Assembly: GCA_036268015.1 (NCBI GenBank)
Contig: DATAUX010000224.1
Coordinates: 1 to 43,114, forward strand
Direction of reading: 5' to 3'
DNA length: 43,114 nucleotides
Source: Solirubrobacteraceae bacterium
GTDB taxonomy: Bacteria > Actinomycetota > Thermoleophilia > Solirubrobacterales > Solirubrobacteraceae
Part shown: piece after piece, positions 26,583 through 36,698 of the stretch
Layout of the letters: each line of letters begins with the position of its first letter
Position numbering within the stretch: position 1 is the stretch's first letter
Translations under genes and position numbers: made by a program
Notes under the pieces: generated by a model
What the model was told of the DNA's origin: nothing
Databases searched by the model: none
The model's input: only the letters and a program-made list of their open reading frames with translations

Positions 26583-28850
26583 TCAGGCCGGGACTGGGGT
26601 GGCGGCGCGGTCGGACTCGCGGTCGAGCACCGCGACCAGCGCTTCGACGGCCTGCGCGTCGAACTGACTCCCCGCGCAGCGCACCAGCTCGGCGCGAGCC
26701 GACGCTGGTCCGATCGACGGCCGGTACGCCCGGTCGCTCGTCATCGCCTCGTAGGCGTCGGCTACCGCGAGGATGCGGGCCTCGAGTGCGACCCCACGCC
26801 CCGCGAGTCCGCCGGGATAGCCCCGGCCGTCGGGCCGCTCGTGGTGGGCGGCCACCCATGGCCGGATGTCTGCGAGGCAGGGGTGCTCGAGGATCTGCGA
26901 GCCGAGCGCCGGATGCGTCCGGATCGTCGCGAGCTCGTCAGGACCAAGCGCTCCCGGCTTGTTGAGGATCGCGTCGGGCACGCCGACCTTGCCGATGTCG
27001 TGGAGCAGGCCGGCCAGCCTGACCCGGCCGATCCGATGCTCGGAGAGACCGAGCTCGCGGGCCATCATCTCCGCGTACCGGCCGACCGTCTCCGAATGCC
27101 GGGCGCTCCCGCTGAAGCGGAGGTCGACGGCTCCGGCCAGGTCGAGCATGACCGCTGTGAACCGCTCGCCCTCGACGTCACGGCCGCGCCCGCCGAAGTC
27201 CGCGTGGTCGGGCGTATCCCGGCTGAACGCGACACTCCGGTTGCGACCGCTCTGCTTGGCTGCGTAGAGGGCGTCGTCGGCCGCGTGGATGAGCGACGCG
27301 GCGGTCTCGCCGTGGCCGGGGAAGGCCGCCAGGCCGAAGCTGATCGTGATCGGCACGGCATCGCCGGCGAACTCGTCGAGCACGGCCCGCCGCAGTCGCT
27401 CGGCCACGACGAGGCCGCCGGCCTGGTCGGTGTCCGGAAGGATCAGGGCGAACTCCTCGCCGCCGACCCGGGCGACGGTGTCGATCTTTCTCCGGGACGA
27501 TTCGAGGACGTCGGTGATCCGCTGGAGCACGATGTCGCCGATCTGATGACCCGACCGGTCGTTGACCGTCTTGAAGTGATCGATGTCGGCCGCGACGAGC
27601 GTGATCTCCTGCCGGCTGCGCCGGGCCCGCTCGAGTTCGAGGTCGAGCAGCTCGCGGAACCCCCGCCGGTTGAGCAGCTTCGTCAGCGGATCGGTACGCG
27701 CCGCGTCGTAGAGGCGGCCGATCAGCAGCTCGACGTGCGCGCGCATCGTCCAGATCAGGGCGGCCGTGACGAGCAGCGTGCCCATCGTCACGACCCACCA
27801 GCTCGCCGCACCGGACGGCGGCGCGACGATCAAGAGGACGCCATAGGCGACGCCGACGTAGGCGATCTGGGCGGCCGTCTGTCGCTTGGTGAGGAAGTAC
27901 GACGAGTAGAGGAAGATCCAGACATAGAAGAAGATCAGCGGGCTCGGCCGCTCGGCCGAGAAGTAGGCGACGCCCGTGATCAGCGTGGTCCCCCAGGTCA
28001 GGGCCACCGGCAGCAGCCAGGTCGGCACGCTTCGCGCCCGCCGGACGAGGACGGCGGAGACGACGTACGCATTGGCGACGATGATCAGCAGGCCGAGCGC
28101 GTTCGGCCGGATCGCGTGCGGAAGCAGCAGCGTGAGCAGCGCGAGGCTGCCGCCGGCCAGGTACAGCCCGCCGAGGGCCTTTGCCATCAGCGCAACGCCG
28201 AAGCTCGAGTCGCCCCGGGTCAGGTGCCCGCTGGAGCGCTCTGGCGGGCAATCGCCGGCCATCCAGGCCGGCCGCTCGGCCGAGGCTCCCGGGAGGACGC
28301 TTGCGTGCCGGCCGCAGACCGCCGTGAAGGCGGGCCTGCAGCCGGTCTCGAAGCCGCTCGCCGGGTACGCACACAGAAGCGAGAAGGACCTATCGCGGCC
28401 GAGCTCGTTCCAGAGGTCTTCGAGCTCGAGCGTCGCCGAGACGTCGCCGTCGTCCCAGAGCAGGGCGACCATCTCGCCGTAGATCCGCACCGATCGTCCG
28501 CCGGCGGCCGCCCTGTCGATCACGCCGCCGATCCGCTCGCGGAAGCGGACGGGGTCGGGCGAACCGTCGACGATCAACGTGTCGAGCAGCTCGGACGCGT
28601 CGAGCGCCAGATACCGCCCGTCGGCGGTCGCCCCGTCCAGATCGATCCCCGCGGCCCGGAGCACGGCGGCGAAGGCGGCTCGGTGCTCGGCCGTCGCGAC
28701 GACGATCGCCGCGTCGTCTGAGCGGAGCGCCGGCCCGATGAAGGAGCCGACCGTCGCGGCCAGGTCGGCGTCGGTCTCGTAGAACTCGACGACGTGCTCG
28801 TGGCGGCGTCCCGCGCCCGAGCCGGCGCGCGAAGCCAGTGGTGACCGCAT
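26583..28850 (-). CDS. MEDS sensor domain - 6 TM - GGDEF diguanylate cyclase - HD-GYP phosphodiesterase
   Basis: Inside ORF 26583..29030; ATG at 28850 (alternatives 28868, 28880). MEDS: HVVEFYETDADL...IYGEMVALLW...LLCAYP. GGDEF: RKID I-site 5 aa before GGEEF. HD-GYP: LLHDIGK and HHERPDGRGYPGG. Confidence 0.9.
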   Translation of the reverse strand: MRSPLASRAGSGAGRRHEHVVEFYETDADLAATVGSFIGPALRSDDAAIVVATAEHRAAFAAVLRAAGIDLDGATADGRYLALDASELLDTLIVDGSPDPVRFRERIGGVIDRAAAGGRSVRIYGEMVALLWDDGDVSATLELEDLWNELGRDRSFSLLCAYPASGFETGCRPAFTAVCGRHASVLPGASAERPAWMAGDCPPERSSGHLTRGDSSFGVALMAKALGGLYLAGGSLALLTLLLPHAIRPNALGLLIIVANAYVVSAVLVRRARSVPTWLLPVALTWGTTLITGVAYFSAERPSPLIFFYVWIFLYSSYFLTKRQTAAQIAYVGVAYGVLLIVAPPSGAASWWVVTMGTLLVTAALIWTMRAHVELLIGRLYDAARTDPLTKLLNRRGFRELLDLELERARRSRQEITLVAADIDHFKTVNDRSGHQIGDIVLQRITDVLESSRRKIDTVARVGGEEFALILPDTDQAGGLVVAERLRRAVLDEFAGDAVPITISFGLAAFPGHGETAASLIHAADDALYAAKQSGRNRSVAFSRDTPDHADFGGRGRDVEGERFTAVMLDLAGAVDLRFSGSARHSETVGRYAEMMARELGLSEHRIGRVRLAGLLHDIGKVGVPDAILNKPGALGPDELATIRTHPALGSQILEHPCLADIRPWVAAHHERPDGRGYPGGLAGRGVALEARILAVADAYEAMTSDRAYRPSIGPASARAELVRCAGSQFDAQAVEALVAVLDRESDRAATPVPA

Positions 28851-29086
28851 CCGGCCCGCAGGACCCATCACCCTGGCCATCGGCCCGGCGCACGGGCGAC
28901 TTGAGATCGGCGAGCCGCCCGCCCCCGGCGCCGGCCGCCAGCGCCCGGGGCACTCCGGGTCAGCTCGAAGCCCGACCGTTCTCTGACGCGATTCCCAGGC
29001 TGCTCTCGGGGTCGCCGGCGATCCTTTCACGAGTCGCAGCGGCCACTCGATGCGATCCGCCCGACCACCAAAGGAGATCGATCAGG

Positions 29087-29317
29087 ATGAGACAGATCAA
29101 ACTAGCAATCGCCACCCTCGCCGCCACCGGCGCACTCGTCGGAGGCGGCGCCGCGATCGCGAGCGCCGCTTCGACCACGACCGCCGCGACCGGAACCACG
29201 GCCGCGACGACGACCGACCACGCCGGACCGCCCGCCGGCGCCAAGGGCACGCCGCCCGCCGGTGCGAAGGGCACGCCGCCGGCCGGCGCCGCGAAGGGTG
29301 ACTGCCCGAACATGTAG
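29087..29317 (+). CDS. small secreted Thr/Ala/Pro-rich repeat protein (76 aa)
   Basis: A strong SD (AAGGAG) lies 10 nt before ATG 29087. Signal peptide MRQIKLAIATLAATGALVGGGAAIASA. Contains 3 x PPAGAKGT-like repeats and ends GDCPNM. Confidence 0.6.
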   Translation: MRQIKLAIATLAATGALVGGGAAIASAASTTTAATGTTAATTTDHAGPPAGAKGTPPAGAKGTPPAGAAKGDCPNM

Positions 29318-29695: not shown

Positions 29696-30664
29696 GTGGC
29701 CGAGGCCGGCGACGGCGGCCGCAGCGACTGCGCGAAGCCGGCCGGCCAGGCCGCCGCCGTCTGCATCGGCGACACCGGGTCGATCGCCCGGATCGCCGAT
29801 CGCCGGACGGTGCCCGTGATCACCGGGCTCCCGTCGGTCGCCTCGGCCGGTGGTCAGGAGGCGAGCGGTCCGGCGGACGTCGTCGCCGTCGACGGGAGGC
29901 TGGCGTTCGTGATCCAGGACACGGACCTGTTCGCGTCCGGCGCCAACCAGTTCGGACGGCTCGGCAAGCCGCTCGGCCACCTCGCACTGGCCGCGACGAA
30001 CGGGACCGGCGGATTCCGGCTGGGCGCCGACCTCGCCCGCTACGAGGCGACGCACGACCCCGACCGCGGGGCCGCGGCCGACAGCCGGATCGAGAGCGAT
30101 CCCTACGGACTGGTCGCCTACAGGGGCGGCTACGTCGTCGCGGACGCCGCCGCCAACGACCTGCTCGGGGTCGACAAGTCCGGCGCCGTGCGTGTGATCG
30201 CGGTCCTCCCGACCCAGACCGAGACGACCTCGTCCGGGACGGTGGTCGCCCAGTCGGTGCCGACGTCGGTCGCCGTCGGCCCGGACGGCGCGCTCTACGT
30301 CGGCGAGTTGACCGGCGCCCCGTTCAAGGTCGGCGCCGCGCGGATCTGGCGGGTCGTGCCCGGCCATCCGCCGACCGTCTACGCGACCGGTTTCACCGAC
30401 GTCTCGGCGATCGCCTTCGATCACCGCGGCCGCCTGCTCGTGCTCGAGATCGACCGGCTCGGCCTCACCGACACGAGCGGCTCCGGCGAGCTGATCCGCG
30501 TCACCACCGAGGGCCGGCGAGCGGTCCTCCTGACCCACGGCCTCGTCTCACCGACCGGCGTCGCCGTCGGTCCGGACGGATCGATCTACATCTCGAACTA
30601 CGGGAGCTCCCCGAGCACGGGAGCCGGGCCGCACGGCGAGATCCTCCGCCTCGCGCCCGGCTGA
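29696..30664 (+). CDS. ScyD/ScyE-family beta-propeller protein; the coding region probably extends upstream to a lipoprotein signal with no canonical start
   Basis: ORF 29696..30664 has family-like motifs AEAGDGG...C...CIGDTGSIARI, GALYVGELTG and GSIYISNYG. The same frame is open back to 29318 and encodes RGLVAIVLAGCGGGS (lipobox) at about 29534-29578, but holds no ATG/GTG/TTG. Confidence 0.7.
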   Translation: MAEAGDGGRSDCAKPAGQAAAVCIGDTGSIARIADRRTVPVITGLPSVASAGGQEASGPADVVAVDGRLAFVIQDTDLFASGANQFGRLGKPLGHLALAATNGTGGFRLGADLARYEATHDPDRGAAADSRIESDPYGLVAYRGGYVVADAAANDLLGVDKSGAVRVIAVLPTQTETTSSGTVVAQSVPTSVAVGPDGALYVGELTGAPFKVGAARIWRVVPGHPPTVYATGFTDVSAIAFDHRGRLLVLEIDRLGLTDTSGSGELIRVTTEGRRAVLLTHGLVSPTGVAVGPDGSIYISNYGSSPSTGAGPHGEILRLAPG

Positions 30665-30669
30665 GCGCG

Positions 30670-31938
30670 TCAGGCGTCGAAGGTGACGGCCATCGTCGTC
30701 GGGTACGGCCCCGTCTTGACGAGCTTCCCGGCGTCACCGGCAGCCCGGGCGACGTTCGACTGCTTGAGCACGGCCTTCGCGATCAGCGGAATCTGCAGCG
30801 CATTGGCAAAGCGCCCGAAGCAGACGTGCATGCCCGCGCCGAAGTGCAGGTAGTCGTGGGCCGGCCGCCCCGGGCGGAAGCCGTTGGGATCGTCGATCAC
30901 GGCCGGATCGAGCATCGCCGACTGCGTCGCCGCGAAGGTCACGGTCCCGGCCTTGATCAGCGACTCGTGCATCGTGCCCTCGGCGACGACGAAGTCGGTC
31001 AGCGCCCGCCGGATCAGTCCCGGCCCCTGGGGCGCCAGGCGCATCCCCTCCCAGAGGATCGCCCGGACCGTGTCGTCGTCGCCGGCGAGGGCCGCGTCGT
31101 GGGCGCTCGCGAGCGCGTCGGGATGGTCGAGGATGACGTCGAGCGCGAAGCTCGTCGCCGTCGCGATCGTCGGCACGAAGCCGGTCATCAGGCCGATCAG
31201 GTTGGCGGCGATCTGCTCGTCGGCGAACGCGGTGTCCGGGTTCGCCTGCATCGCCAGCAGACGGCCGAGGACGTCCTCGGCGGCGGTCCCCGCCGCCTTG
31301 CGCTCGGCGATCACGCCCGCGAGGTACGGCTTCCACTCGCCGACCGCGGCGAGCGCGGCCGCGTGGATCTTCGGGTCGTTCGTGACGTTGACGAAGATGT
31401 CCTCGAACATCGCGCAGGCCCACTCGATCAGCTTGTCCTCACTCGGCCCGGGCGTGCCGAACCAGTGCCCGATCAGGCGGGCCGGGACCCGCTTGGCGAG
31501 GTCGGGGATCTCGACCCGACCGTCCCGGGCAGCCGCCTCGCCGACGAGCTCGTCGGCGGCCTGGGTCACGAAGCCGACCAGGTCCGGCATGTCCGAGCGC
31601 GGGGCCGCGAGGCGGAGGATCGAGATGTCGTGCTCGTACTCCGGCGAGTCGTCGAGGCCGAGGATGAAGTCGCCGACGAGCGCCTGCATCTTCTCGTTGT
31701 ACGGGGCGACGCCGAACGACTCGTCGTTGGTCAGGACCTCGACGACGTCCGGGTAGCGGGTGACGATCGCGATGTCATGGATGTGGAGGACCGGTTTCAG
31801 CGTGCGGAGCAGGTCGAACAGCGGCTGGGGGTGGGCCGTGACCTCCGCGGTCAGCTTGGCCTTCCCCTCGGCCACGAATCGGTCGACATCGGCCCCCAGC
31901 CGGCTGCCGAAATGCTCGAGCTCGTCATCGATGCTCAC
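30670..31938 (-). CDS. cytochrome P450 (atypical I-helix)
   Basis: GTG at 31938 overlaps the DyP stop (GTGA). Heme loop HFGAGMHVCFGRF, EXXR as WEGMR, PERF-like DPNGFRPGRP. The I-helix reads GLMTGFVPTIAT. Confidence 0.9.
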   Translation of the reverse strand: MSIDDELEHFGSRLGADVDRFVAEGKAKLTAEVTAHPQPLFDLLRTLKPVLHIHDIAIVTRYPDVVEVLTNDESFGVAPYNEKMQALVGDFILGLDDSPEYEHDISILRLAAPRSDMPDLVGFVTQAADELVGEAAARDGRVEIPDLAKRVPARLIGHWFGTPGPSEDKLIEWACAMFEDIFVNVTNDPKIHAAALAAVGEWKPYLAGVIAERKAAGTAAEDVLGRLLAMQANPDTAFADEQIAANLIGLMTGFVPTIATATSFALDVILDHPDALASAHDAALAGDDDTVRAILWEGMRLAPQGPGLIRRALTDFVVAEGTMHESLIKAGTVTFAATQSAMLDPAVIDDPNGFRPGRPAHDYLHFGAGMHVCFGRFANALQIPLIAKAVLKQSNVARAAGDAGKLVKTGPYPTTMAVTFDA

Positions 31939-33302
31939 GCTGCACCACCCCCCGCTGCCGCAGCAAGGAACTGCAGGCCATTGATTCCGGGCACGAAGAA
32001 GTACTCGCCGCCCCTGACGGTGACGACCCGCTCGAGCGGTCCGACGAAGAACGGCGGGTCGCCGGGGACGATCATCTTCTTGACGGTCGCCGGGTCCTCC
32101 TGGTCCTGCGGCCCGAGCAGGACGTCCTGATCCTCGCCGAGGCCGAACGTGTTGCCCGCGCCGAGCCACTGGGACTGGACGAACTCGAACTGGCGGGCGA
32201 TGCTCGCCTGGAGCGTGATGAAGATCACGCCGCGGTCCCTGCCGTCGTCCTCGGCGCCGGCCGCCAGCGGCGGTCCGTAGGGGAGTCCGCGGCGGATCAG
32301 CCGGTGGCGGTTGACGAGCTGGCCGTCGAACGGCAGGCTGTCGCGGGGGTTCACGCGGCGGGTGTGGGCGCCGATCGGACACTTCAGCCCATTCGGGTCG
32401 TCCGCGTACCGGGACGAGTTGTTGCGCTGCTCGTCGGCCACGATCGCCGGGTCCGGCTGCTCGGGCGAGAGCTCGAGCGGCGTGCCGTCGCGCCAGCGGC
32501 CGACGACCTTGGCGGCCAGCAGCTCCTCGCCGCCGGGGTAGAGCTTCGCCGACTCGGTCAGACGACCGCGGAACTTCGCGACGTCCTGGTAGAGCTTCCG
32601 GTAGACGAGGTACGACGCGTTCGTCGTCAGCTCGGCCGCCGGCGGCGCGTCCGGCAGGACGCCCTCCTCGTCGGGGTAGCCGAGGATGAACTCGCCGGCC
32701 CGGATCGGCCGCCAGCCGCCCTCCTTGGTGACGGCGCCCTGCCCCGGCAGCATCGGTACGCCGCTGCCCTCGATCGCCGGCTGGGCGAACCCGTCGGCAT
32801 AGCCGAAGTGCTCGCGCATCGTCGGCAGCAGGGCGCCGACGTCCTCGTAGACGACGGTCAGGCCGCCGCTCGCGGCGATCCCCGCGCGCAGCCGCTTGTC
32901 GTGGGCCTCGAGCGCGGCCTCGTGCTTCGCGCTGATCATCACGAAGACGTGGATCTCGTCGCCTCCGAAACCGCCCTCCCAGTGCTCGGGAGCGCTCTCG
33001 CCGGTGTCGCCGAGCAGGTCGGCCCGGGCGGCCATGCCCTGGCGAAACTCCTCGGGGAAACCGGCCATGCACGCGTCGGGCAGCTCGAGCTTCGCAAGCC
33101 CGGCGTAGCTGAAGGCGAGATTCACACCGGACTCCGGCTTGACCGACCAGGTCGCCGCCGTCTGGACCTCCTCGGTGATCGTCGAGATCCAAGCCGCCGC
33201 ACCCGCGGCGTCGTCGATCCGCAGGAACAGGTAACGCGCGATCGGAAGCGTGTAACCGCGGACGACGAAGCCCTGGATCCGCGCGAGGTCGAGGTCGGTC
33301 AC
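31935..33302 (-). CDS. Dyp-type (dye-decolorizing) heme peroxidase
   Basis: ORF 31935..33302. GXXDG motif FGYADGFAQP, proximal-His region CPIGAHTRRVNPRD, and C-terminal GVIFITLQASIARQFEFVQSQW. GTG at 33302 overlaps the upstream stop (GTGA). Confidence 0.92.
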   Translation of the reverse strand: MTDLDLARIQGFVVRGYTLPIARYLFLRIDDAAGAAAWISTITEEVQTAATWSVKPESGVNLAFSYAGLAKLELPDACMAGFPEEFRQGMAARADLLGDTGESAPEHWEGGFGGDEIHVFVMISAKHEAALEAHDKRLRAGIAASGGLTVVYEDVGALLPTMREHFGYADGFAQPAIEGSGVPMLPGQGAVTKEGGWRPIRAGEFILGYPDEEGVLPDAPPAAELTTNASYLVYRKLYQDVAKFRGRLTESAKLYPGGEELLAAKVVGRWRDGTPLELSPEQPDPAIVADEQRNNSSRYADDPNGLKCPIGAHTRRVNPRDSLPFDGQLVNRHRLIRRGLPYGPPLAAGAEDDGRDRGVIFITLQASIARQFEFVQSQWLGAGNTFGLGEDQDVLLGPQDQEDPATVKKMIVPGDPPFFVGPLERVVTVRGGEYFFVPGINGLQFLAAAAGGGAA

Positions 33303-33847
33303 GCCGGGAAGCTCCGCTCGAAGGCCGCCTTGAGCGCGGCCGGCGCCATGCCCTGGGAGTTCATCGCGAAGGCGATCACGCTGTGGCGGGCCGCCAGGCT
33401 GCTCTTGACATCCTCGACGGTCCGCTCGCCGTACGCGCCGAAGAACAGCGAGCTCTCGACGTGGTGCTTGCGCATATACGCCGCGAACGCCGCCGCGTCC
33501 CCGCTCCCCGGGTAGCCGCAGCAGTGGCTCCAGATCTCGTCCGCCGCGGCGCCGAGGCCTGTGCGCAGGGATTCGAGGTACGAGTCGAGGTCCCTGCCGT
33601 CGAAGTTGCTCGTGAAGAGCAGCTGGCCGAGCTTGAGGTGGTCGCGCTGCCCCTTGCCCTCGTAGACCACGTCGCCGAGCACCACCCAGCGGGCGAAGTG
33701 TGTCCTGGCGACCTTGGCGAGCGGGCTCGCCGGGCCGCCCTCGAGTGCGTTGAGATGCCGCGCGAGGGAGTTCTCGTGGCCCTCGCGGATCGCCGTCAAC
33801 ACGGTCAGCGAGTGAGCCTGCCCGGAGATGTCGTGACGCCCGTTCAC
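33299..33847 (-). CDS. hypothetical protein, paralogue B of the 33844..34419 product
   Basis: GTG at 33847 overlaps the upstream stop (GTGA). GC3 is high. It shares blocks with paralogue A: LTVLT, HFARWVVL, LLFTSNFDG..LDSYLE, IW..CCGYPG. Confidence 0.7.
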   Translation of the reverse strand: MNGRHDISGQAHSLTVLTAIREGHENSLARHLNALEGGPASPLAKVARTHFARWVVLGDVVYEGKGQRDHLKLGQLLFTSNFDGRDLDSYLESLRTGLGAAADEIWSHCCGYPGSGDAAAFAAYMRKHHVESSLFFGAYGERTVEDVKSSLAARHSVIAFAMNSQGMAPAALKAAFERSFPA

Positions 33848-34419
33848 AGGTCGCCCTGGACCTTCGTCAGAAACGCGACGTACGCCGCCTGGAAGGCATC
33901 GGGATCGAGGCCGGCCGAGGCCTTCCTGAAGTCGGCGAGGGCCGCCTCGACCCGCCCGGCGGAGACGATCTCCGTCGTCGTGTGTCCGGGGTAGGCGGAC
34001 CAGTAGTGGTTGGCGACGTACTCGTTGCGACGGATGTACTGCTTGAAGGGCTCGACCGGCAGCGGTCCCGGGAAGCCGAGCGACGTTCCCCAGATCGCCT
34101 TCATGCGCAGGGCGACGACCTCCGAGAAGGCGTCGATGTACTGGTCCCAGGTGCCGTTGAAGTTGCTCTCGAAGAAGAGGTACGGGTGGCTCGGGCGCTG
34201 GCCCTCCCCGTCGGTCCCATCCGGGAAGCGCTTGATCAGCGTCCACCGGGCGTAGTGGATGAACGAGAGGGTCTCGAGCTTCTTCAGCGTGAAAGACAGG
34301 TTCCGACCCGCCCAGAAGACGATCGGGAGCAGTATCGGCCCCAGGCGATTGACCGGTGTGAGCACGGTGATCGCGGTCGCCTTCCCCTCGATATTCGCCA
34401 CGGCGGCAATGTATTCCAT
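33844..34419 (-). CDS. hypothetical protein, paralogue A (first gene of the DyP/P450 operon)
   Basis: ORF 33844..34419 with an ATG start and high GC3. Blocks: ITVLT, IHYARWTLI, YLFFESNFNGTWDQYIDAF, IWGTSLGFPG. Confidence 0.7.
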   Translation of the reverse strand: MEYIAAVANIEGKATAITVLTPVNRLGPILLPIVFWAGRNLSFTLKKLETLSFIHYARWTLIKRFPDGTDGEGQRPSHPYLFFESNFNGTWDQYIDAFSEVVALRMKAIWGTSLGFPGPLPVEPFKQYIRRNEYVANHYWSAYPGHTTTEIVSAGRVEAALADFRKASAGLDPDAFQAAYVAFLTKVQGDL

Positions 34420-34540
34420 CGACGTGACGTTGGCCAGGGCGTTCGGCTGCCCGAACCGCCGCTCGCCGCCTCCTTCGCGTCAGCTCACCGCGGACCCAAA
34501 TCCGCGTTTCGGCGTGCCCCGGTCGGGTAGGGGTGACGCC

Positions 34541-34717
34541 ATGGCCTCGACCAGCCTCGTGTCCGCAGGGATCTCGGCGTTGATCTGGCTCGTGATCTCG
34601 CTGGCGACCGGCGGCTCCGCGCTCTTCTCGGTCGGCGGCGCGATCGTCTGTGGCCTGGTCGTGTTCCTGATCGGATATGCCTTCCGCCTCGTCGTGTCCC
34701 GGAGTCGCTCGCTCTAG
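34541..34717 (+). CDS. small hypothetical membrane protein (58 aa, 2 TM)
   Basis: ATG at 34541 inside ORF 34259..34717, with AGGGGTGA upstream. GC3 is high. Its TAG shares the CTAG tetranucleotide with the convergent gene's stop. Confidence 0.4.
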   Translation: MASTSLVSAGISALIWLVISLATGGSALFSVGGAIVCGLVVFLIGYAFRLVVSRSRSL

Positions 34718-35403
34718 CCGGCCGCGGTGCCGGCTGTGACCGGGATCGCCAACCGCGCGGCTCCCGGCGAGTGGCTTCCGATCACGAGCTTGAGGCGGGC
34801 CGGGACGGCGTTGCGCAACTCGAAGACCAGCTTGACCCGCTTGCTCGTGCCCGGCGCCAGCTGCTTGAGGACGAGCGTCTGCCAGAGCGTGTGCGAGAGG
34901 GCTGAGGCGACCGGCAGCGACGGTCGGTAGACGGTGGCGCCGGCGACGAGGTCGACGAGCCCGACCGACGCGGTGCTCGGCGTGGCCGACACCCCGCGCA
35001 CGGCGAGCTTGACGATCACGAGGTGGCCGTGGACGCCCGCCGCCGAGCCCGGCAGGTCGAGGCTGGTCGCCCGCTGGACCGACAGCGGCGAGTAGGCGAC
35101 GCCGCGCGCGACCACGCCCGACCCGCTGCGGAAGGTCGACATCGTCGAATGCGGCCGGGTCGTTGGTGTCGGAGATCGGGGCGGCCGGGTTGCGAAGACG
35201 CTCGGGGGAGCCGGCGTGACCGCCCGCAGCAGGGGGATCAGCACGAGGATGCCGAGCACGAGGCCGACGACCGCCACACACAGTGCGACGTCGGGCCGCC
35301 AGGCTACGCTCGCGTCCGGCTGGCGCCGCCCCGATCCACGTCGGCCCGCGTGGGAGGACCGGCCGGGCATGGGGTGGTGTTCGCTGACCATCCTGCGGTC
35401 CAT
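34714..35403 (-). CDS. membrane-anchored protein with DUF4352-like Ig-fold ectodomain
   Basis: ORF 34714..35502. ATG 35403 is preferred because GGAGA lies 9 nt upstream. One TM (ALCVAVVGLVLGILVLIPLL), a Pro/Thr linker, then a beta-rich domain ending KRVKLVFEL. Confidence 0.55.
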   Translation of the reverse strand: MDRRMVSEHHPMPGRSSHAGRRGSGRRQPDASVAWRPDVALCVAVVGLVLGILVLIPLLRAVTPAPPSVFATRPPRSPTPTTRPHSTMSTFRSGSGVVARGVAYSPLSVQRATSLDLPGSAAGVHGHLVIVKLAVRGVSATPSTASVGLVDLVAGATVYRPSLPVASALSHTLWQTLVLKQLAPGTSKRVKLVFELRNAVPARLKLVIGSHSPGAARLAIPVTAGTAAG

Positions 35404-35651
35404 CCGATCTCGTCTCCACTCGTCGTCGTGGCACCGATCGGCCGGCGCCGATGGCGTCCGGCGCGACCCTTTGTTGGCGTGCTCGACGAAAGATGCCTGC
35501 AATGCCGGGGGTCGCGCGCGTTTGACGCAAAGCTTGCAACTCCTTCCGGGCCTCCTCGCCGGATCCGGACGGGACCGGCGACCGTTGCGGCGGTCCTTCC
35601 CGGCGGCATTAGGCTGTGCGCGACATCCACATCGACCCAGGGAGTGGAAGG

Positions 35652-36698
35652 GTGAACACTACGGCGCAGCAGACCGGCGGCGAGGATCTCCGAGCGGACT
35701 TCGTGTTCGAGGGCGGTGGGGTCAAGGGCATCGGCCTGTCCGGCGCTTACCGCGAGCTGAGCGACCGCGGCTACCACGCACAGTGCGTCGCCGGCACGTC
35801 GGCCGGGGCGATCAACGCCGCGCTGGTCGCCTGCGGGTTCGACGGGGCGGAGGTCGAGGACGTCGCCCTCCACCGGATGAAGTTCCCCGAGTTCGAGGAC
35901 CGGAACTTCCTCGGCCGGTTCGGCAAGCCCGGCGAGGCGGCCGAGTTCTTCAAGACGCGCGGCATGCACAGCGGCGACTACTTCCTCACCTGGATGCGGG
36001 AGCTGCTCGCCGAGAAGGGGATCACCAAGTTCGGCCAGCTGCGCGACCCCGACGCCAAGTCCCCGGCCCGCGAGTACCGCCTCCAGGTGATCGCCTCTGA
36101 TCTCAGTGCCCGCAGCATGCTCGTCCTCCCGCGCGACGCCGCGAAGATCGGCTTCGAGCCCGACGATCTCGAGATCGCCCTGGCCGTGCGGATGAGCATG
36201 TCGATCCCGGTCTTCTTCAACCCGGTCACGCCCGTCGACGCCGACGGGCAGACCCACGTGATCGTCGACGGCGGCCTGCTCTCGAACTATCCGATCTGGC
36301 TCTTCGACGCGCCCGGCGACACCCAGCCGGAGTTCCCGACCTTCGGGATGCTGCTCGTCGCACCCAACCAGAAGGCCCCGCTGGTCGCGACCGGCGCCGA
36401 CGACGCACTCGCCGACGTGACGTCGGATCTCGGCTTCCTCAAGGCGATGGAGGCGACCGTGACCCAGGCTCACGACCGCTTCTACGTCGAGCAGGCCAAC
36501 TACGCCCGGACGATCCCGATCCCGACGCTCGGCGTCAAGACGACCGAGTTCGACGTCTCGCCCGAGCGCACCCAGGCGCTCTTCGACTCCGGCCGCTCGG
36601 CCGCCGCCCAGTTCCTCGAGACCTGGGACTTCCAGGGCTACAAGGACAAGTTCCGCAGCGGCACCACGCCGACCCGCCGCGACACCGTGACGCCCTGA
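35652..36698 (+). CDS. patatin-like phospholipase
   Basis: ORF 35616..36698. GTG 35652 is preferred because GGAG lies 7 nt upstream. Oxyanion motif FEGGGVKG, nucleophile GTSAG (GxSxG), catalytic Asp in IVDGGLLSNYP. Confidence 0.9.
   Translation: MNTTAQQTGGEDLRADFVFEGGGVKGIGLSGAYRELSDRGYHAQCVAGTSAGAINAALVACGFDGAEVEDVALHRMKFPEFEDRNFLGRFGKPGEAAEFFKTRGMHSGDYFLTWMRELLAEKGITKFGQLRDPDAKSPAREYRLQVIASDLSARSMLVLPRDAAKIGFEPDDLEIALAVRMSMSIPVFFNPVTPVDADGQTHVIVDGGLLSNYPIWLFDAPGDTQPEFPTFGMLLVAPNQKAPLVATGADDALADVTSDLGFLKAMEATVTQAHDRFYVEQANYARTIPIPTLGVKTTEFDVSPERTQALFDSGRSAAAQFLETWDFQGYKDKFRSGTTPTRRDTVTP

What the first reader, a model, noticed from the sequence alone, without database searches (positions are those of the whole stretch)
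30670..34419. Four-gene operon joined only by GTGA overlaps: two paralogous unknown proteins, DyP peroxidase, atypical P450
On the minus strand, four ORFs are joined by three identical 4-nt start/stop overlaps (GTGA at 33844-33847, 33299-33302 and 31935-31938). That implies obligate co-translation and fixed stoichiometry. Two of the products are heme enzymes of different superfamilies: a DyP (peroxide-consuming) and a P450. They are preceded by two about 185-aa paralogues whose family I cannot name. I know of no described pathway built on a DyP+P450 pair with such accessory proteins. The unit is flanked by unrelated genes and has its own 120-bp upstream spacer. It looks like a self-contained oxidative module, for example peroxide-shunt chemistry on a lipid or aromatic substrate.
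Basis: partly seen in the sequence, partly recalled or inferred. Interest (0 to 1): 0.75.

Follow-up and report, generated by a model that had tools for sequence, protein, structure and literature searches.

The report
DyP peroxidase module with unknown partners
The four overlapping genes are one copy of a widespread, undescribed bacterial enzyme system in which two small proteins of an unnamed family always accompany a DyP haem peroxidase, often with a P450, giving the first testable clue to what this class of DyP does in cells.

Summary
Four minus-strand genes (A 191 aa, B 182 aa, DyP 455 aa, P450 422 aa) are joined by three GTGA overlaps, and A and B are paralogues.

The conserved core is A-B-DyP. 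In 160 related loci from at least six phyla, a DyP follows A/B wherever the contig allows (128 of 128). A P450 is adjacent in about half.

In other lineages the P450 is replaced by a mini-catalase; the two were never seen together. That mini-catalase belongs to the clade that is elsewhere fused to lipoxygenases, COX-like peroxidases and RoxA-like dioxygenases.

Natural fusions join the parts in most combinations: A-B, B-A, A-B-DyP, DyP-P450, DyP-catalase, catalase-B-A, and all four domains in one chain. The parts therefore very probably work together physically.

A and B have no Pfam, NCBIfam or PDB relative. AlphaFold models give a paired ferredoxin-like alpha+beta barrel. B carries near-invariant His, Arg and Cys.

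My best inference, not shown, is a redox-partner-free hydroperoxide relay on a lipid-like substrate, analogous to LOX-AOS and DOX-CYP fusions. A peroxide-detoxification role is the main rival. I found no description of the system in the searchable literature.

The parts
33844..34419 (-). Gene A: 191-aa small protein (185 aa if the GTG at 34401 is the start). A-type member of an unnamed ferredoxin-like alpha+beta-barrel family.
   Evidence: ORF. No Pfam, NCBIfam or PDB match. 897 close homologues. AlphaFold model with pLDDT 73 has a beta-alpha-alpha-beta-beta-alpha-alpha core plus C-terminal helices; the best Foldseek matches are dimeric alpha+beta barrels. Conserved residues over 118 A-type domains: Asn86, Tyr94, Phe83, Phe98, Trp110, Ala142-Tyr143.
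33299..33847 (-). Gene B: 182-aa paralogue of A (B-type). It carries the near-invariant His50, Arg53 and Cys109.
   Evidence: 26% identical to A, E = 3e-16. 369 close homologues, named only 'hypothetical protein' in Solirubrobacteraceae MAGs. Over 125 B-type domains, His is conserved in 100%, Arg in 99% and Cys in 98%.
31935..33302 (-). Class V (C-type) DyP-type haem peroxidase, 455 aa. The catalytic motifs are intact and there is no signal peptide.
   Evidence: Pfam DyP_N and Dyp_perox_C; TIGR01413 scores 109.5 bits against a cut-off of 100.5. The best solved relative is Deinococcus radiodurans DrDyP (8re3), 286 bits over the full length. The GYADG, GAHTRRVNPRD and RLIRRGLPY motifs are conserved in 127 associated DyPs.
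30670..31938 (-). Cytochrome P450, 422 aa. The Cys-ligand loop and ExxR are canonical, but the I-helix reads GFVPT and lacks the acidic residue.
   Evidence: Pfam p450 scores 55.6 bits against a cut-off of 22.8. Only weak matches to named P450 families. The I-helix signature G[FW][VI]PT is conserved in orthologues down to about 37% identity. No ferredoxin or reductase is among the conserved neighbours.
33844..33847 (-). GTGA stop/start overlap between A and B.
   Evidence: Sequence. The -4 spacing is kept in 77 of 83 homologous loci.
33299..33302 (-). GTGA stop/start overlap between B and DyP.
   Evidence: Sequence. The spacing is -4 in 58 and -1 in 9 of 82 homologous loci.
31935..31938 (-). 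GTGA stop/start overlap between DyP and P450.
   Evidence: Sequence. The spacing is -4 in 16 of the 18 loci that have a downstream P450.
34420..34543 (-). Upstream non-coding spacer, the presumed promoter region of the operon.
   Evidence: It lies between the ATG of A and the divergent 57-aa ORF. The sigma-70 consensus scan found nothing, which is uninformative for this organism type.
35616..36698 (+). Patatin-like phospholipase, divergent and 1.2 kb upstream. It is possibly linked functionally, as a supplier of free fatty acid.
   Evidence: Pfam Patatin, E = 1e-29. A patatin gene lies within the flanks of 8 of 70 and 3 of 23 related loci, in different positions. In L085 it is the fourth gene, directly after DyP on the same strand. 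This is an inference, not a demonstrated link.

Best explanation
SHOWN. The four genes encode one version of a conserved cytoplasmic multi-haem enzyme system.
- Its invariant core is a pair of paralogous ferredoxin-like alpha+beta-barrel proteins, A and B, plus a catalytically intact class V DyP peroxidase.
- A and B are predicted to form a pseudo-dimeric barrel. B holds a near-invariant His-Arg-Cys site. A appears to be its degenerate structural partner.
- A P450 is the optional fourth component here. Other lineages carry a mini-catalase in its place.
- The parts are translationally coupled and are fused to one another in most combinations in nature, so they very probably act as a physical complex.

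INFERRED (most likely mechanism). The system is a hydroperoxide relay that needs no NAD(P)H or redox partner.
- The A/B + DyP core oxygenates a lipid-like substrate to an organic hydroperoxide, or uses such a hydroperoxide as oxidant. The substrate is probably a free unsaturated fatty acid, supplied in some loci by a patatin lipase.
- The P450, or in other lineages the mini-catalase, then rearranges or dehydrates that hydroperoxide.
- This parallels lipoxygenase/catalase-related-AOS fusions, fungal dioxygenase-P450 (Ppo/LDS) fusions and CYP74 enzymes.
- The data do not say which of A/B or DyP makes the hydroperoxide.
For: Core conservation:
- A/B is followed by DyP in 77 of 77 GTDB loci and 51 of 51 metagenome loci where the contig allows. 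No locus had room for a DyP and lacked one.
- The core occurs in Actinomycetota, Chloroflexota, Nitrospirota, Dormibacterota and Acidobacteriota (Granulicella plasmid), and in Cyanobacteriota as the catalase-B-A fusion followed by DyP.

Fusions:
- Among the top 150 representatives there are 60 A-B and 18 B-A tandems.
- A-B-DyP and B-A-DyP fusions.
- DyP-P450 in one ORF, in L091, L067, L121 and L122.
- A | B | DyP-catalase in L176, catalase-B-A | DyP in L088, L090 and L177, and all four domains in the single chain P0428.

Structure:
- The tandem A-B model has pLDDT 86 and pTM 0.86. It shows two ferredoxin-like halves.
- Its best PDB matches are tandem ABM-type proteins: WhiE-ORFI, sulfur oxygenase reductase and an anthrone-oxidase-like protein.

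The P450 is linked, and interchangeable with the mini-catalase:
- Two different P450 families were recruited, upstream or downstream.
- A P450 is present in 34 of 70 and 15 of 23 assessable loci.
- P450 and mini-catalase were never seen together.

Link to hydroperoxide chemistry:
- Both P450 families lack the I-helix acid needed for O2 activation, and no redox-partner gene is conserved nearby.
- The mini-catalase clade shares the motif R-D-[QA]-H-x-K-x-H-G. Elsewhere it is fused to lipoxygenase, animal haem peroxidase and RoxA-like dioxygenase domains.
- Catalase-related AOS/HPL and P450s acting on fatty-acid hydroperoxides are established convergent solutions (PMC5617202, PMC8124189, PMC13049297).

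Lipid hints:
- Patatin recurs near the module and is in the operon in L085.
- Fatty-acid genes lie next to the Sphingobium and Paracoccus versions.

DyP motifs are intact in 127 associated DyPs.
Against: - No biochemical data exist for any member.
- About half of the loci have only A-B-DyP, so a second haem enzyme is not required.
- The P450 is not a CYP74 or CYP152 member. Its nearest named relatives are ordinary class I bacterial P450s, and it may retain the I-helix Thr.
- The mini-catalases have Gln/Ala-His rather than the Thr-His pair. From my recollection, not checked here, Thr-His is a hallmark of fatty-acid-hydroperoxide-reactive catalase-related proteins.
- Patatin and fatty-acid genes are adjacent in only a minority of loci.
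- From general knowledge, not tested here, these bacteria are not known for polyunsaturated fatty acids.
- Relatives in Deinococcus respond to oxidative stress (PMC5731708), and the Granulicella copy sits near Fur and KatG. Both fit a defence role equally well.
Confidence: 0.45

Rival explanations
1. Peroxide-defence module. DyP, together with the P450 or mini-catalase, reduces H2O2 or organic and lipid hydroperoxides formed under oxidative or desiccation stress. A/B acts as an accessory subunit: an activator of the DyP, or a Cys-based electron donor or sensor.
For: - DrDyP (DR_A0145) and its catalase-like neighbour DR_A0146 both increase after UVC/vacuum stress (PMC5731708).
- DR_A0146 lacks catalase activity (PMC6300522).
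- Isolated DrDyP is inactive at pH 7.5, with six-coordinate low-spin haem, and its authors suggest that partner proteins may govern its activity (PMC10820274).
- The Granulicella copy lies near a Fur-family regulator and KatG.
- B has a near-invariant Cys-Arg-His site, which recalls thiol peroxidases (the resemblance is my inference).
- The hosts are aerobic soil bacteria.
Against: - It does not explain why the mini-catalase clade is otherwise fused to lipoxygenases and other dioxygenases.
- It does not explain why two P450 families were recruited, or why patatin recurs.
- The Cys is not conserved in the single-copy A/B-like relatives.
- The neighbour clustering of the GTDB loci found no recurrent neighbour family beyond A/B, DyP, P450 and patatin, apart from clade-limited synteny, so no shared stress regulator.
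Confidence: 0.25
2. Tailoring cassette for a small aromatic or natural-product substrate. An ABM-like A/B cyclase or oxygenase, a DyP and a P450 together carry out radical oxidation or coupling.
For: - The best structural matches of A-B are ABM-type polyketide enzymes: WhiE-ORFI, AbxO, an anthrone-oxidase-like protein and SnoaB.
- The nearest solved P450s are diketopiperazine-coupling enzymes: NasF5053, NzeB and NascB.
Against: - The structural matches are weak (TM 0.3-0.4), and the P450 matches fall far below the family cut-offs (67 bits against 500).
- The neighbour clustering of the GTDB loci found no recurrent neighbour family of any other kind; core biosynthetic genes (PKS, NRPS, CDPS) were not searched for by name.
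- The module sits in unrelated contexts in different genomes.
Confidence: 0.12
3. Haem or iron handling. A/B is an IsdG-like haem-binding or haem-degrading barrel that works with an EfeB-like DyP to extract iron from haem or to load haem into the partner enzymes.
For: - IsdG appears among the weak fold matches.
- A TonB-dependent receptor and a Fur-family regulator lie next to the Granulicella copy.
- Every partner is a haem protein.
Against: - The IsdG Asn-Trp-His triad (from my recollection, not checked) was not recognisable among the conserved residues of A or B.
- The DyP scores 23 bits against a cut-off of 428 for the EfeB equivalog and shows no Tat signal (sequence).
- EfeU/EfeO or haem transporters were not searched for by name, but no such family recurred among the neighbours.
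- Fusion of a chaperone to three different client folds would be unusual.
Confidence: 0.05
4. The four genes are merely adjacent, and the overlaps are a by-product of compact high-GC genomes.
For: From general knowledge, 4-nt ATGA/GTGA overlaps are the commonest overlap class in prokaryotes.
Against: - 128 of 128 assessable loci keep A/B next to DyP.
- The overlaps are conserved.
- Multiple independent domain fusions exist.
Confidence: 0.01

Closest known systems
Deinococcus radiodurans DrDyP (DR_A0145, PDB 8RE2/8RE3) and its neighbour, the catalase-like DR_A0146
   Same: - DrDyP is the closest solved relative of the window's DyP: 286 bits over the full length, with the same GxxDG, His and Arg motifs.
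- It is a class V/C DyP of unknown physiological role.
- It is encoded next to a catalase-like gene that has no catalase activity. This matches the DyP + mini-catalase versions of the module.
   Different: - The window has a P450 instead of a mini-catalase, and two separate A/B genes.
- I could not retrieve DR_A0146, so I do not know whether DR_A0146 or a neighbour contains an A/B-like domain.
Catalase-related allene oxide synthase / hydroperoxide lyase fused to lipoxygenase (corals, cyanobacteria)
   Same: - A dioxygenase is coupled, often by fusion, to a haem enzyme that converts the resulting fatty-acid hydroperoxide without any reductant (PMC5617202).
- The mini-catalase that replaces the P450 in sister systems belongs to a clade that is itself fused to lipoxygenases.
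   Different: - There is no lipoxygenase here. The partner is DyP plus A/B.
- The window uses a P450, not a mini-catalase.
- The substrate and the reaction are unknown.
Fungal dioxygenase-P450 fusion enzymes (Ppo / linoleate diol synthases) and CYP74 enzymes
   Same: - A haem peroxidase-type domain is paired with a self-sufficient P450 that acts on a hydroperoxide (PMC13049297, PMC8124189).
- Natural DyP-P450 fusions exist in this system.
- The P450 lacks the I-helix acid and has no redox partner nearby.
   Different: - The peroxidase is a DyP (dimeric alpha+beta-barrel fold), not a COX-like animal haem peroxidase.
- The P450 is not a member of CYP74 or of the fungal CYP6001-type families, and its Cys loop is canonical.
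- An extra obligatory A/B pair is present.
ABM / dimeric alpha+beta-barrel superfamily (WhiE-ORFI, ActVA-Orf6/SnoaB-type cofactor-free oxygenases, sulfur oxygenase reductase, IsdG)
   Same: - The predicted fold is the same: two ferredoxin-like beta-alpha-beta units forming a barrel.
- Tandem-repeat members are the best structural matches.
   Different: - There is no sequence match to any Pfam or NCBIfam model.
- TM-scores are low (0.3-0.6).
- Each half has a long helical extension.
- The conserved residues are different: His-Arg-Cys in B.
Other DyP gene contexts: encapsulin-DyP cargo systems and EfeUOB
   Same: In all of these a DyP is encoded in an operon with dedicated partner proteins.
   Different: - No encapsulin shell, EfeU or EfeO family recurred among the neighbours, although they were not searched for by name.
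- There is no Tat signal.
- The DyP is class V, not class A or B.

Membership tests
DyP-type peroxidase (class V / C-type) | Sequence membership: DyP_N + Dyp_perox_C domains and TIGR01413. | tested here: met
   PF21105 E = 7.6e-13. PF20628 scores 21.2 bits against a cut-off of 20. TIGR01413 scores 109.5 bits against 100.5.
DyP-type peroxidase (class V / C-type) | Catalytic residues: the GxxDG distal Asp, the distal Arg and the proximal His. | tested here: met
   GYADG, RLIRRGLPY and GAHTRRVNPRD are present. They align with DrDyP and are conserved in 127 associated DyPs.
DyP-type peroxidase (class V / C-type) | Class V: long form (about 450 aa), closest to the C/D-type enzymes. | tested here: met
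   The best PDB matches are DrDyP, an ancestral D-type DyP, fungal DyPs, AnaPX and DyP2. The EfeB equivalog scores only 23 bits against a cut-off of 428.
DyP-type peroxidase (class V / C-type) | Haem binding and H2O2-dependent peroxidase activity. | not testable with these tools
   This needs expression, UV-vis spectroscopy and activity assays.
Cytochrome P450 | Cys-ligand loop FxxGxHxCxG and the ExxR motif. | tested here: met
   FGAGMHVCFG and EGMR are present. Pfam p450 scores 55.6 bits against a cut-off of 22.8.
Cytochrome P450 | I-helix acid-alcohol pair (A/G-G-x-D/E-T-T) used for O2 activation. | tested here: not met
   The I-helix reads G-F-V-P-T-I, with the acid replaced by Pro and the Thr probably retained. 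This rests on the HMMER alignment to 9vgm and on spacing to the HPD turn. The signature is conserved as G[FW][VI]PT.
Cytochrome P450 | Ferredoxin / ferredoxin-reductase partner encoded nearby, or a fused reductase domain. | tested here: not met
   No such family appears among the conserved neighbours. The natural fusions are to DyP, not to a reductase. Partners encoded elsewhere in the genome cannot be excluded.
CYP74 / CYP152 (peroxide- or hydroperoxide-using P450s) | Sequence membership and the characteristic modified Cys loop (CYP74) or Arg-Pro I-helix (CYP152). | tested here: not met
   The nearest named relatives are ordinary bacterial class I P450s, at scores far below their cut-offs. 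The Cys loop is canonical. The family hallmarks themselves come from my own knowledge.
ABM / dimeric alpha+beta-barrel superfamily (for A and B) | Ferredoxin-like beta-alpha-beta fold that pairs into a barrel. | tested here: met
   The AlphaFold models have pLDDT 73 (A alone) and pLDDT 86, pTM 0.86 (natural A-B fusion). Foldseek matches PeHNL, At3g17210, ABM proteins, WhiE-ORFI and SOR with probabilities up to 1.00, but with TM-scores of only 0.3-0.6. This rests on predictions only.
ABM / dimeric alpha+beta-barrel superfamily (for A and B) | Sequence match to a described family (ABM PF03992, Dabb, EthD, MLI and others). | tested here: not met
   No Pfam or NCBIfam hit. No PDB sequence hit, even with a profile.
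Dioxygenase + hydroperoxide-converting haem enzyme pairs (LOX-cAOS, DOX-CYP) | Two catalytic partners linked genetically, including by natural fusion. | tested here: met
   DyP-P450, DyP-catalase, catalase-B-A and A-B-DyP fusions, plus a chain with all four domains.
Dioxygenase + hydroperoxide-converting haem enzyme pairs (LOX-cAOS, DOX-CYP) | The downstream haem partner belongs to a clade known to act on fatty-acid hydroperoxides. | tested here: inconclusive
   The mini-catalase alternative shares a clade and a distal motif with lipoxygenase-fused proteins. It lacks the Thr-His pair, a hallmark I recall but did not check, and none of these proteins has been characterised. The P450 itself has no characterised close relative.
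Dioxygenase + hydroperoxide-converting haem enzyme pairs (LOX-cAOS, DOX-CYP) | The upstream partner forms a hydroperoxide from an unsaturated lipid and O2. | not testable with these tools
   This needs enzyme assays with fatty acids, O2 electrode measurements and LC-MS.
Encapsulin-DyP cargo system | An adjacent encapsulin shell gene and a C-terminal targeting peptide on the DyP. | tested here: not met
   No Linocin_M18/encapsulin Pfam appears in the gene lists that carry Pfam annotation, and no other neighbour family recurs in the clustering. The DyP is class V, not class B, and its C-terminus (…LAAAAGGGAA) overlaps the P450 start. I recognised no targeting peptide by eye, and ran no dedicated motif search.
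Known anti-phage defence systems | A match to the PADLOC models. | tested here: not met
   A, B, DyP, P450 and the fusion proteins have no hits. Only the patatin weakly matches generic phospholipase effectors.

The most novel reading that the evidence does not exclude
Class V DyPs, together with the previously unrecognised A/B alpha+beta-barrel family, form a fourth class of lipid dioxygenase/peroxidase machinery, alongside lipoxygenases, COX-like haem peroxidases and di-haem RoxA/diol-synthase enzymes. This machinery would feed P450 or mini-catalase 'allene-oxide-synthase-like' partners. That would amount to a widespread, often plasmid-borne, bacterial oxylipin-type pathway in soil Actinomycetota, Acidobacteriota, Nitrospirota, Cyanobacteriota and Alphaproteobacteria. 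It would also give these DyPs their long-sought physiological function.
Probability: 0.3. Interest if true: 0.88.

Novelty: new variant of a known kind. Interest (0 to 1): 0.76.

Why it matters
The physiological substrates and roles of DyP peroxidases are a long-standing open question. The DrDyP structure paper states this explicitly and finds the isolated enzyme inactive at neutral pH (PMC10820274).

This analysis shows that class V DyPs of this type are practically never encoded alone. They come with an obligatory partner family that has no name. That family has at least 3,555 clusters at 50% identity and is absent from Pfam, NCBIfam and the PDB. They often also come with a second haem enzyme, P450 or mini-catalase, and nature has fused the parts in most combinations.

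This turns 'what do DyPs do?' into a concrete experiment: co-express the partners and look for complex formation and hydroperoxide chemistry on lipids.

If the relay model is right, it adds a new enzyme class to bacterial oxylipin biology and a reductant-free multi-haem oxidation cassette for biocatalysis. If it is wrong, the A/B family is still a large unexplored partner of haem peroxidases.

Tried and rejected
- Sequence annotation of A and B gave nothing. I tried Pfam, NCBIfam, PDB with a single sequence and with a profile, and PADLOC. The weak DUF5106 hit (19 bits against a cut-off of 28) is spurious.
- The promoter and terminator consensus scan found nothing useful.
- The first metagenome scan, with the 25-sequence tandem alignment, failed because it had no conserved stretch. 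I repeated it with 7 sequences.
- Literature searches returned nothing relevant. I searched DyP + P450 + context, DyP + neighbourhood, DyP + catalase-related + hydroperoxide, and DyP + oxylipin. The octadecanoid review held no relevant passage in the stored part.
- I could not retrieve the DR_A0146 sequence, so its domain make-up remains unverified. It did not appear among the named hits, nor in the plasmid searches.
- I looked for the Thr-His hallmark of hydroperoxide-reactive catalase-related proteins. The clade has Gln/Ala-His instead.
- I considered A/B as an extra copy of DyP or chlorite-dismutase domains. Foldseek gives DyP and Cld only E of about 0.07, so this is not supported beyond the shared superfold.
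- I considered a conflict or defence reading, because of the NB-ARC/WD40 neighbours in three cyanobacterial loci, a toxin-like neighbour and a conjugative-element context. The Solirubrobacterales loci do not support it and PADLOC gives nothing, so I kept it only as a note.
- The reading of L098 as a DyP-P450 fusion was dropped, because the ORF that holds the P450 there is only 428 aa.

Full report
**1. The observation**

- A, 33844-34419, ATG start, 191 aa
- B, 33299-33847, GTG start, 182 aa
- a DyP, 31935-33302, GTG start, 455 aa
- a P450, 30670-31938, GTG start, 422 aa

Each junction reads GTGA, so the GTG start of the downstream gene overlaps the TGA stop of the upstream one.

A and B are paralogues: 26% identity over 183 residues, E = 3e-16. 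DyP and P450 pass curated thresholds (PF21105, PF20628, TIGR01413, PF00067). A and B match nothing in Pfam or NCBIfam.

The flanks are unrelated:
- an amidase cluster
- a GGDEF/HD-GYP protein
- a convergent NHL beta-propeller whose stop lies 5 nt from the P450 stop
- a divergent 57-aa membrane ORF
- a patatin gene
- envelope-polysaccharide genes

A 4-nt overlap is ordinary for high-GC operons (general knowledge). In homologous loci, however, the -4 spacing is kept at A-B in 77 of 83, at B-DyP in 58 of 82 (with -1 in nine more), and at DyP-P450 in 16 of 18. Translational coupling therefore appears to be under selection.

**2. The unit is conserved, and its core is a triad**

Homologues of A (897) and of B (369) come almost entirely from soil metagenomes and Solirubrobacteraceae MAGs. 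All are called 'hypothetical protein'.

A scan of one genome per GTDB species returned 80 loci. These are mostly Solirubrobacterales, with some Thermoleophilaceae, Acidimicrobiia, Chloroflexota, Nitrospirota and Dormibacterota. A metagenome scan seeded with divergent tandem A-B proteins returned 80 more.

By tblastn, A/B is followed by a DyP in 77 of 77 and 51 of 51 loci where the contig allows. There is not one case with room for a DyP and none present.

A cultured example is Granulicella tundricola plasmid pACIX901. It encodes hypothetical 198 aa, hypothetical 210 aa, then 'dyp-type peroxidase'.

A P450 lies within the flanks in 34 of 70 assessable GTDB loci and 15 of 23 assessable metagenome loci. 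It is usually directly downstream and sometimes upstream. It belongs to two distinct P450 families, which points to repeated recruitment.

Clustering of all flanking ORFs of the GTDB loci found no other widely shared neighbour. The exceptions were clade-limited synteny and a patatin-like phospholipase. Patatin occurs in 8 of 70 and 3 of 23 loci, in several arrangements. In L085 it is the fourth gene, directly after DyP.

**3. Natural fusions**

A profile search of 1.84 billion representative proteins found 3,555 clusters at 50% identity with E <= 1e-3.

Among the best 150 representatives, the architectures are A-B (60), B-A (18), A alone (21), B alone (31), A-B-X (10), X-B-A (6) and B-A-X (1). 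Nearly every two-domain protein pairs one A-type with one B-type domain; three do not.

X is either a DyP (P0242, P0245, P0275, P0342) or a mini-catalase domain.

Further arrangements:
- L091 has an A-B fusion overlapped by an 885-aa DyP-P450 fusion.
- L067 (a Nitrospirota MAG), L121 and L122 also carry DyP and P450 in one 880-891-aa ORF.
- L176 is A | B | DyP-catalase.
- L088, L090 and the cyanobacterium Altericista (L177) are catalase-B-A | DyP.
- P0428 (1,303 aa) has two A/B-type domains, a DyP and a mini-catalase in one chain.

P450 and mini-catalase were never seen in the same locus: 59 loci had a P450, at least 8 had a mini-catalase, and none had both. This pattern is what non-orthologous replacement of one role would produce.

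**4. What A and B are**

No solved structure is related by sequence, even when searched with a profile.

AlphaFold2 of A gives pLDDT 73 and a beta-alpha-alpha-beta-beta-alpha-alpha core with C-terminal helices. Its best Foldseek matches are dimeric alpha+beta-barrel proteins: PeHNL, At3g17210, an ABM protein, MLMI, SnoaB and IsdG. E-values are about 1e-2, probabilities reach 0.99, and target-normalised TM-scores are 0.5-0.6.

A natural A-B fusion (P0250) folds with pLDDT 86 and pTM 0.86 into two such halves. Its best matches are tandem ferredoxin-like repeat proteins: WhiE-ORFI (E = 4e-6, TM 0.40), sulfur oxygenase reductase, AbxO, an anthrone-oxidase-like protein and CT0912. DyP and chlorite dismutase appear only at E of about 0.07.

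Conservation differs between the two types:
- Over 125 B-type domains, His50 is conserved in 100%, Arg53 in 99% and Cys109 in 98%.
- Over 118 A-type domains, the conserved residues are mainly structural aromatics plus Asn86. The corresponding His is not invariant.

I read this as one functional pocket, in B, paired with a degenerate scaffold, A. This is an inference.

More distant single-copy relatives of 157-248 aa keep the H-x-x-R and FDG-x-WD-x-YI motifs. They sit next to class V DyPs, usually with a 'catalase family protein', on plasmids of Rhizobium, Sphingobium, Paracoccus and Rhodococcus. In Nostoc, Gloeothece and Streptomyces they sit next to the DyP without one. None of them has a Pfam or NCBIfam family.

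**5. The haem enzymes**

The DyP's closest solved relative is D. radiodurans DrDyP (8RE2/8RE3), at 286 bits. The GxxDG Asp, the distal Arg and the proximal His are present, and they are conserved in 127 associated DyPs. It has no Tat signal or other signal peptide and is far from the EfeB equivalog.

Three published points about DrDyP are relevant:
- It is inactive at pH 7.5, with six-coordinate low-spin haem, and its authors ask what triggers activity (PMC10820274).
- Its gene lies next to the catalase-like DR_A0146, which has no catalase activity (PMC6300522).
- Both proteins rise after UVC/vacuum stress (PMC5731708).

The P450 has a canonical Cys loop and ExxR. Its I-helix reads G-F-V-P-T, conserved as G[FW][VI]PT. 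The second associated P450 family reads A-G-Y-[LI]-[TS]-T-T. Both lack the acidic residue used for O2 activation. No ferredoxin or reductase gene is conserved nearby.

The mini-catalase that replaces the P450 shares 36-42% identity and the distal motif R-D-[QA]-H-x-K-x-H-G with proteins that are fused to lipoxygenase (PF00305), animal haem peroxidase (PF03098), RoxA-like di-haem cytochrome c (PF21419) and DyP.

**6. How it most likely works**

Shown: this is a conserved, translationally coupled, fusion-prone system made of A/B + DyP + (P450 or mini-catalase).

Inferred: P450s and catalase-related proteins are the two known convergent solutions for converting fatty-acid hydroperoxides without a reductant. 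Examples are CYP74 and DOX-CYP enzymes on one side and cAOS/HPL-LOX on the other (PMC8124189, PMC13049297, PMC5617202). This mini-catalase clade otherwise partners with lipid and isoprenoid dioxygenases.

The most economical model is therefore a hydroperoxide relay. A/B + DyP makes or uses an organic, probably lipid, hydroperoxide, and the P450 transforms it. Patatin, and in Sphingobium and Paracoccus neighbouring fatty-acid genes including an oleate hydratase, fit a fatty-acid substrate, but they are present in only a minority of loci.

I cannot tell whether the hydroperoxide-forming step belongs to A/B or to the DyP. For A/B the precedents are cofactor-free or metal-dependent ABM-type oxygenases and SOR. 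For the DyP the route would be a protein radical, as in COX-like dioxygenases.

I put this model at about 0.45. The main rival, a peroxide or lipid-peroxide defence module with A/B as an activator or Cys-based partner, I put at about 0.25. It draws on the Deinococcus stress data and the Fur/KatG neighbourhood in Granulicella. Natural-product tailoring (about 0.12) and haem/iron handling (about 0.05) fit less well. Chance adjacency is excluded.

**7. Comparison with known systems, and novelty**

The DyP is a bona fide class V DyP. The P450 is a bona fide P450 that fails the acid-alcohol test and belongs to no hydroperoxide-specialised family. A and B resemble ABM-type barrels in predicted fold only.

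The system works like LOX-cAOS and DOX-CYP pairs in its genetic logic, but it shares neither the dioxygenase nor the accessory proteins with them. It is not an encapsulin-DyP system, an EfeUOB system or a known defence system.

Six literature searches aimed at this question found no description of the A/B family or of a DyP-P450 or DyP-mini-catalase module. The library holds open-access papers only, so an earlier description cannot be excluded.

I rate it a new variant of a known kind, namely coupled haem oxygenase/hydroperoxide-converting systems, built on an uncharacterised partner family. Interest is 0.76, because it makes the long-standing question of DyP physiological function directly testable.

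**8. Caveats**
- All functional statements rest on comparative genomics and predicted structures.
- tblastn-based counts depend on contig length and on my thresholds.
- The background frequency of P450 or patatin genes per genome was not measured.
- Most loci come from MAGs.
- The start codon of A (ATG 34419 or GTG 34401) is unresolved.
- The domain content of DR_A0146 is unverified.

Noticed in passing
L180 2206-5323; L182 2073-5329; L179 3246-6528; L173 4995-7999: Plasmids of cultured Sphingobium cloacae, Paracoccus yeei, Rhodococcus koreensis and Rhizobium rosettiformans carry a simpler relative of the module: a mini-catalase, one A/B-like small protein and a class V DyP. In Sphingobium the divergent neighbouring operon encodes TetR, an acyl-CoA thioesterase, a 3-hydroxyacyl-CoA dehydrogenase and an oleate hydratase. 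In Paracoccus an acyl-CoA dehydrogenase and ETF genes lie nearby.
   Followed up: partly
L174 6362-7390; L175 3887-4900: In Nostoc sp. HK-01 and Streptomyces sp. NBC_01579, the A/B-like + DyP pair is accompanied by a shared hypothetical protein of about 340 aa. It has no Pfam or NCBIfam match and may be a third alternative partner.
   Followed up: partly
L088 5390-8905; L090 7194-10409; L177 9828-13550: All three cyanobacterial-type catalase-B-A | DyP loci have a large NB-ARC/NACHT-WD40 (STAND, CHAT or VMAP-type) gene convergent directly after the DyP. This may be shared synteny, or a hint of a conflict or signalling context.
   Followed up: no
L087 8001-9905; L089 6001-7932: A-B-mini-catalase fusions occur without an adjacent DyP. 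One sits in a conjugative-element-like stretch (TrbC, TraG-like). The other sits next to a 3,540-aa Tad3/ART-PolyVal toxin-like protein.
   Followed up: no
window 35616-36698 (+): A patatin-like phospholipase lies divergent from the operon. Patatin recurs near the module in about 11-13% of loci and is in the operon in L085 (10517-11527).
   Followed up: partly
window 34544-34717 (+) and 34714-35277 (-): A 57-aa ORF with two predicted TM segments lies divergent from gene A, and a 187-aa ORF with no family lies upstream. The 57-aa ORF is found only in the very closest relatives (L004-L007). The 187-aa ORF extends a little further (L004-L010).
   Followed up: partly
window 26583-29030 (-): An 815-aa protein combines a MEDS sensory domain, a GGDEF diguanylate cyclase domain and an HD-GYP-type HD domain. 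It is a c-di-GMP turnover protein unrelated to the finding.
   Followed up: no
window 29696-30664 (+): An NHL-repeat beta-propeller protein is convergent with the P450. Its stop codon lies 5 nt from the P450 stop, and no terminator-like structure separates them.
   Followed up: no
window 28838-29317 (+): A possible ORF has an Ala/Gly/Pro/Thr-rich tail containing the triplicated peptide GTPPAGAKG. It lies antisense to other ORFs and may not be a real gene.
   Followed up: no
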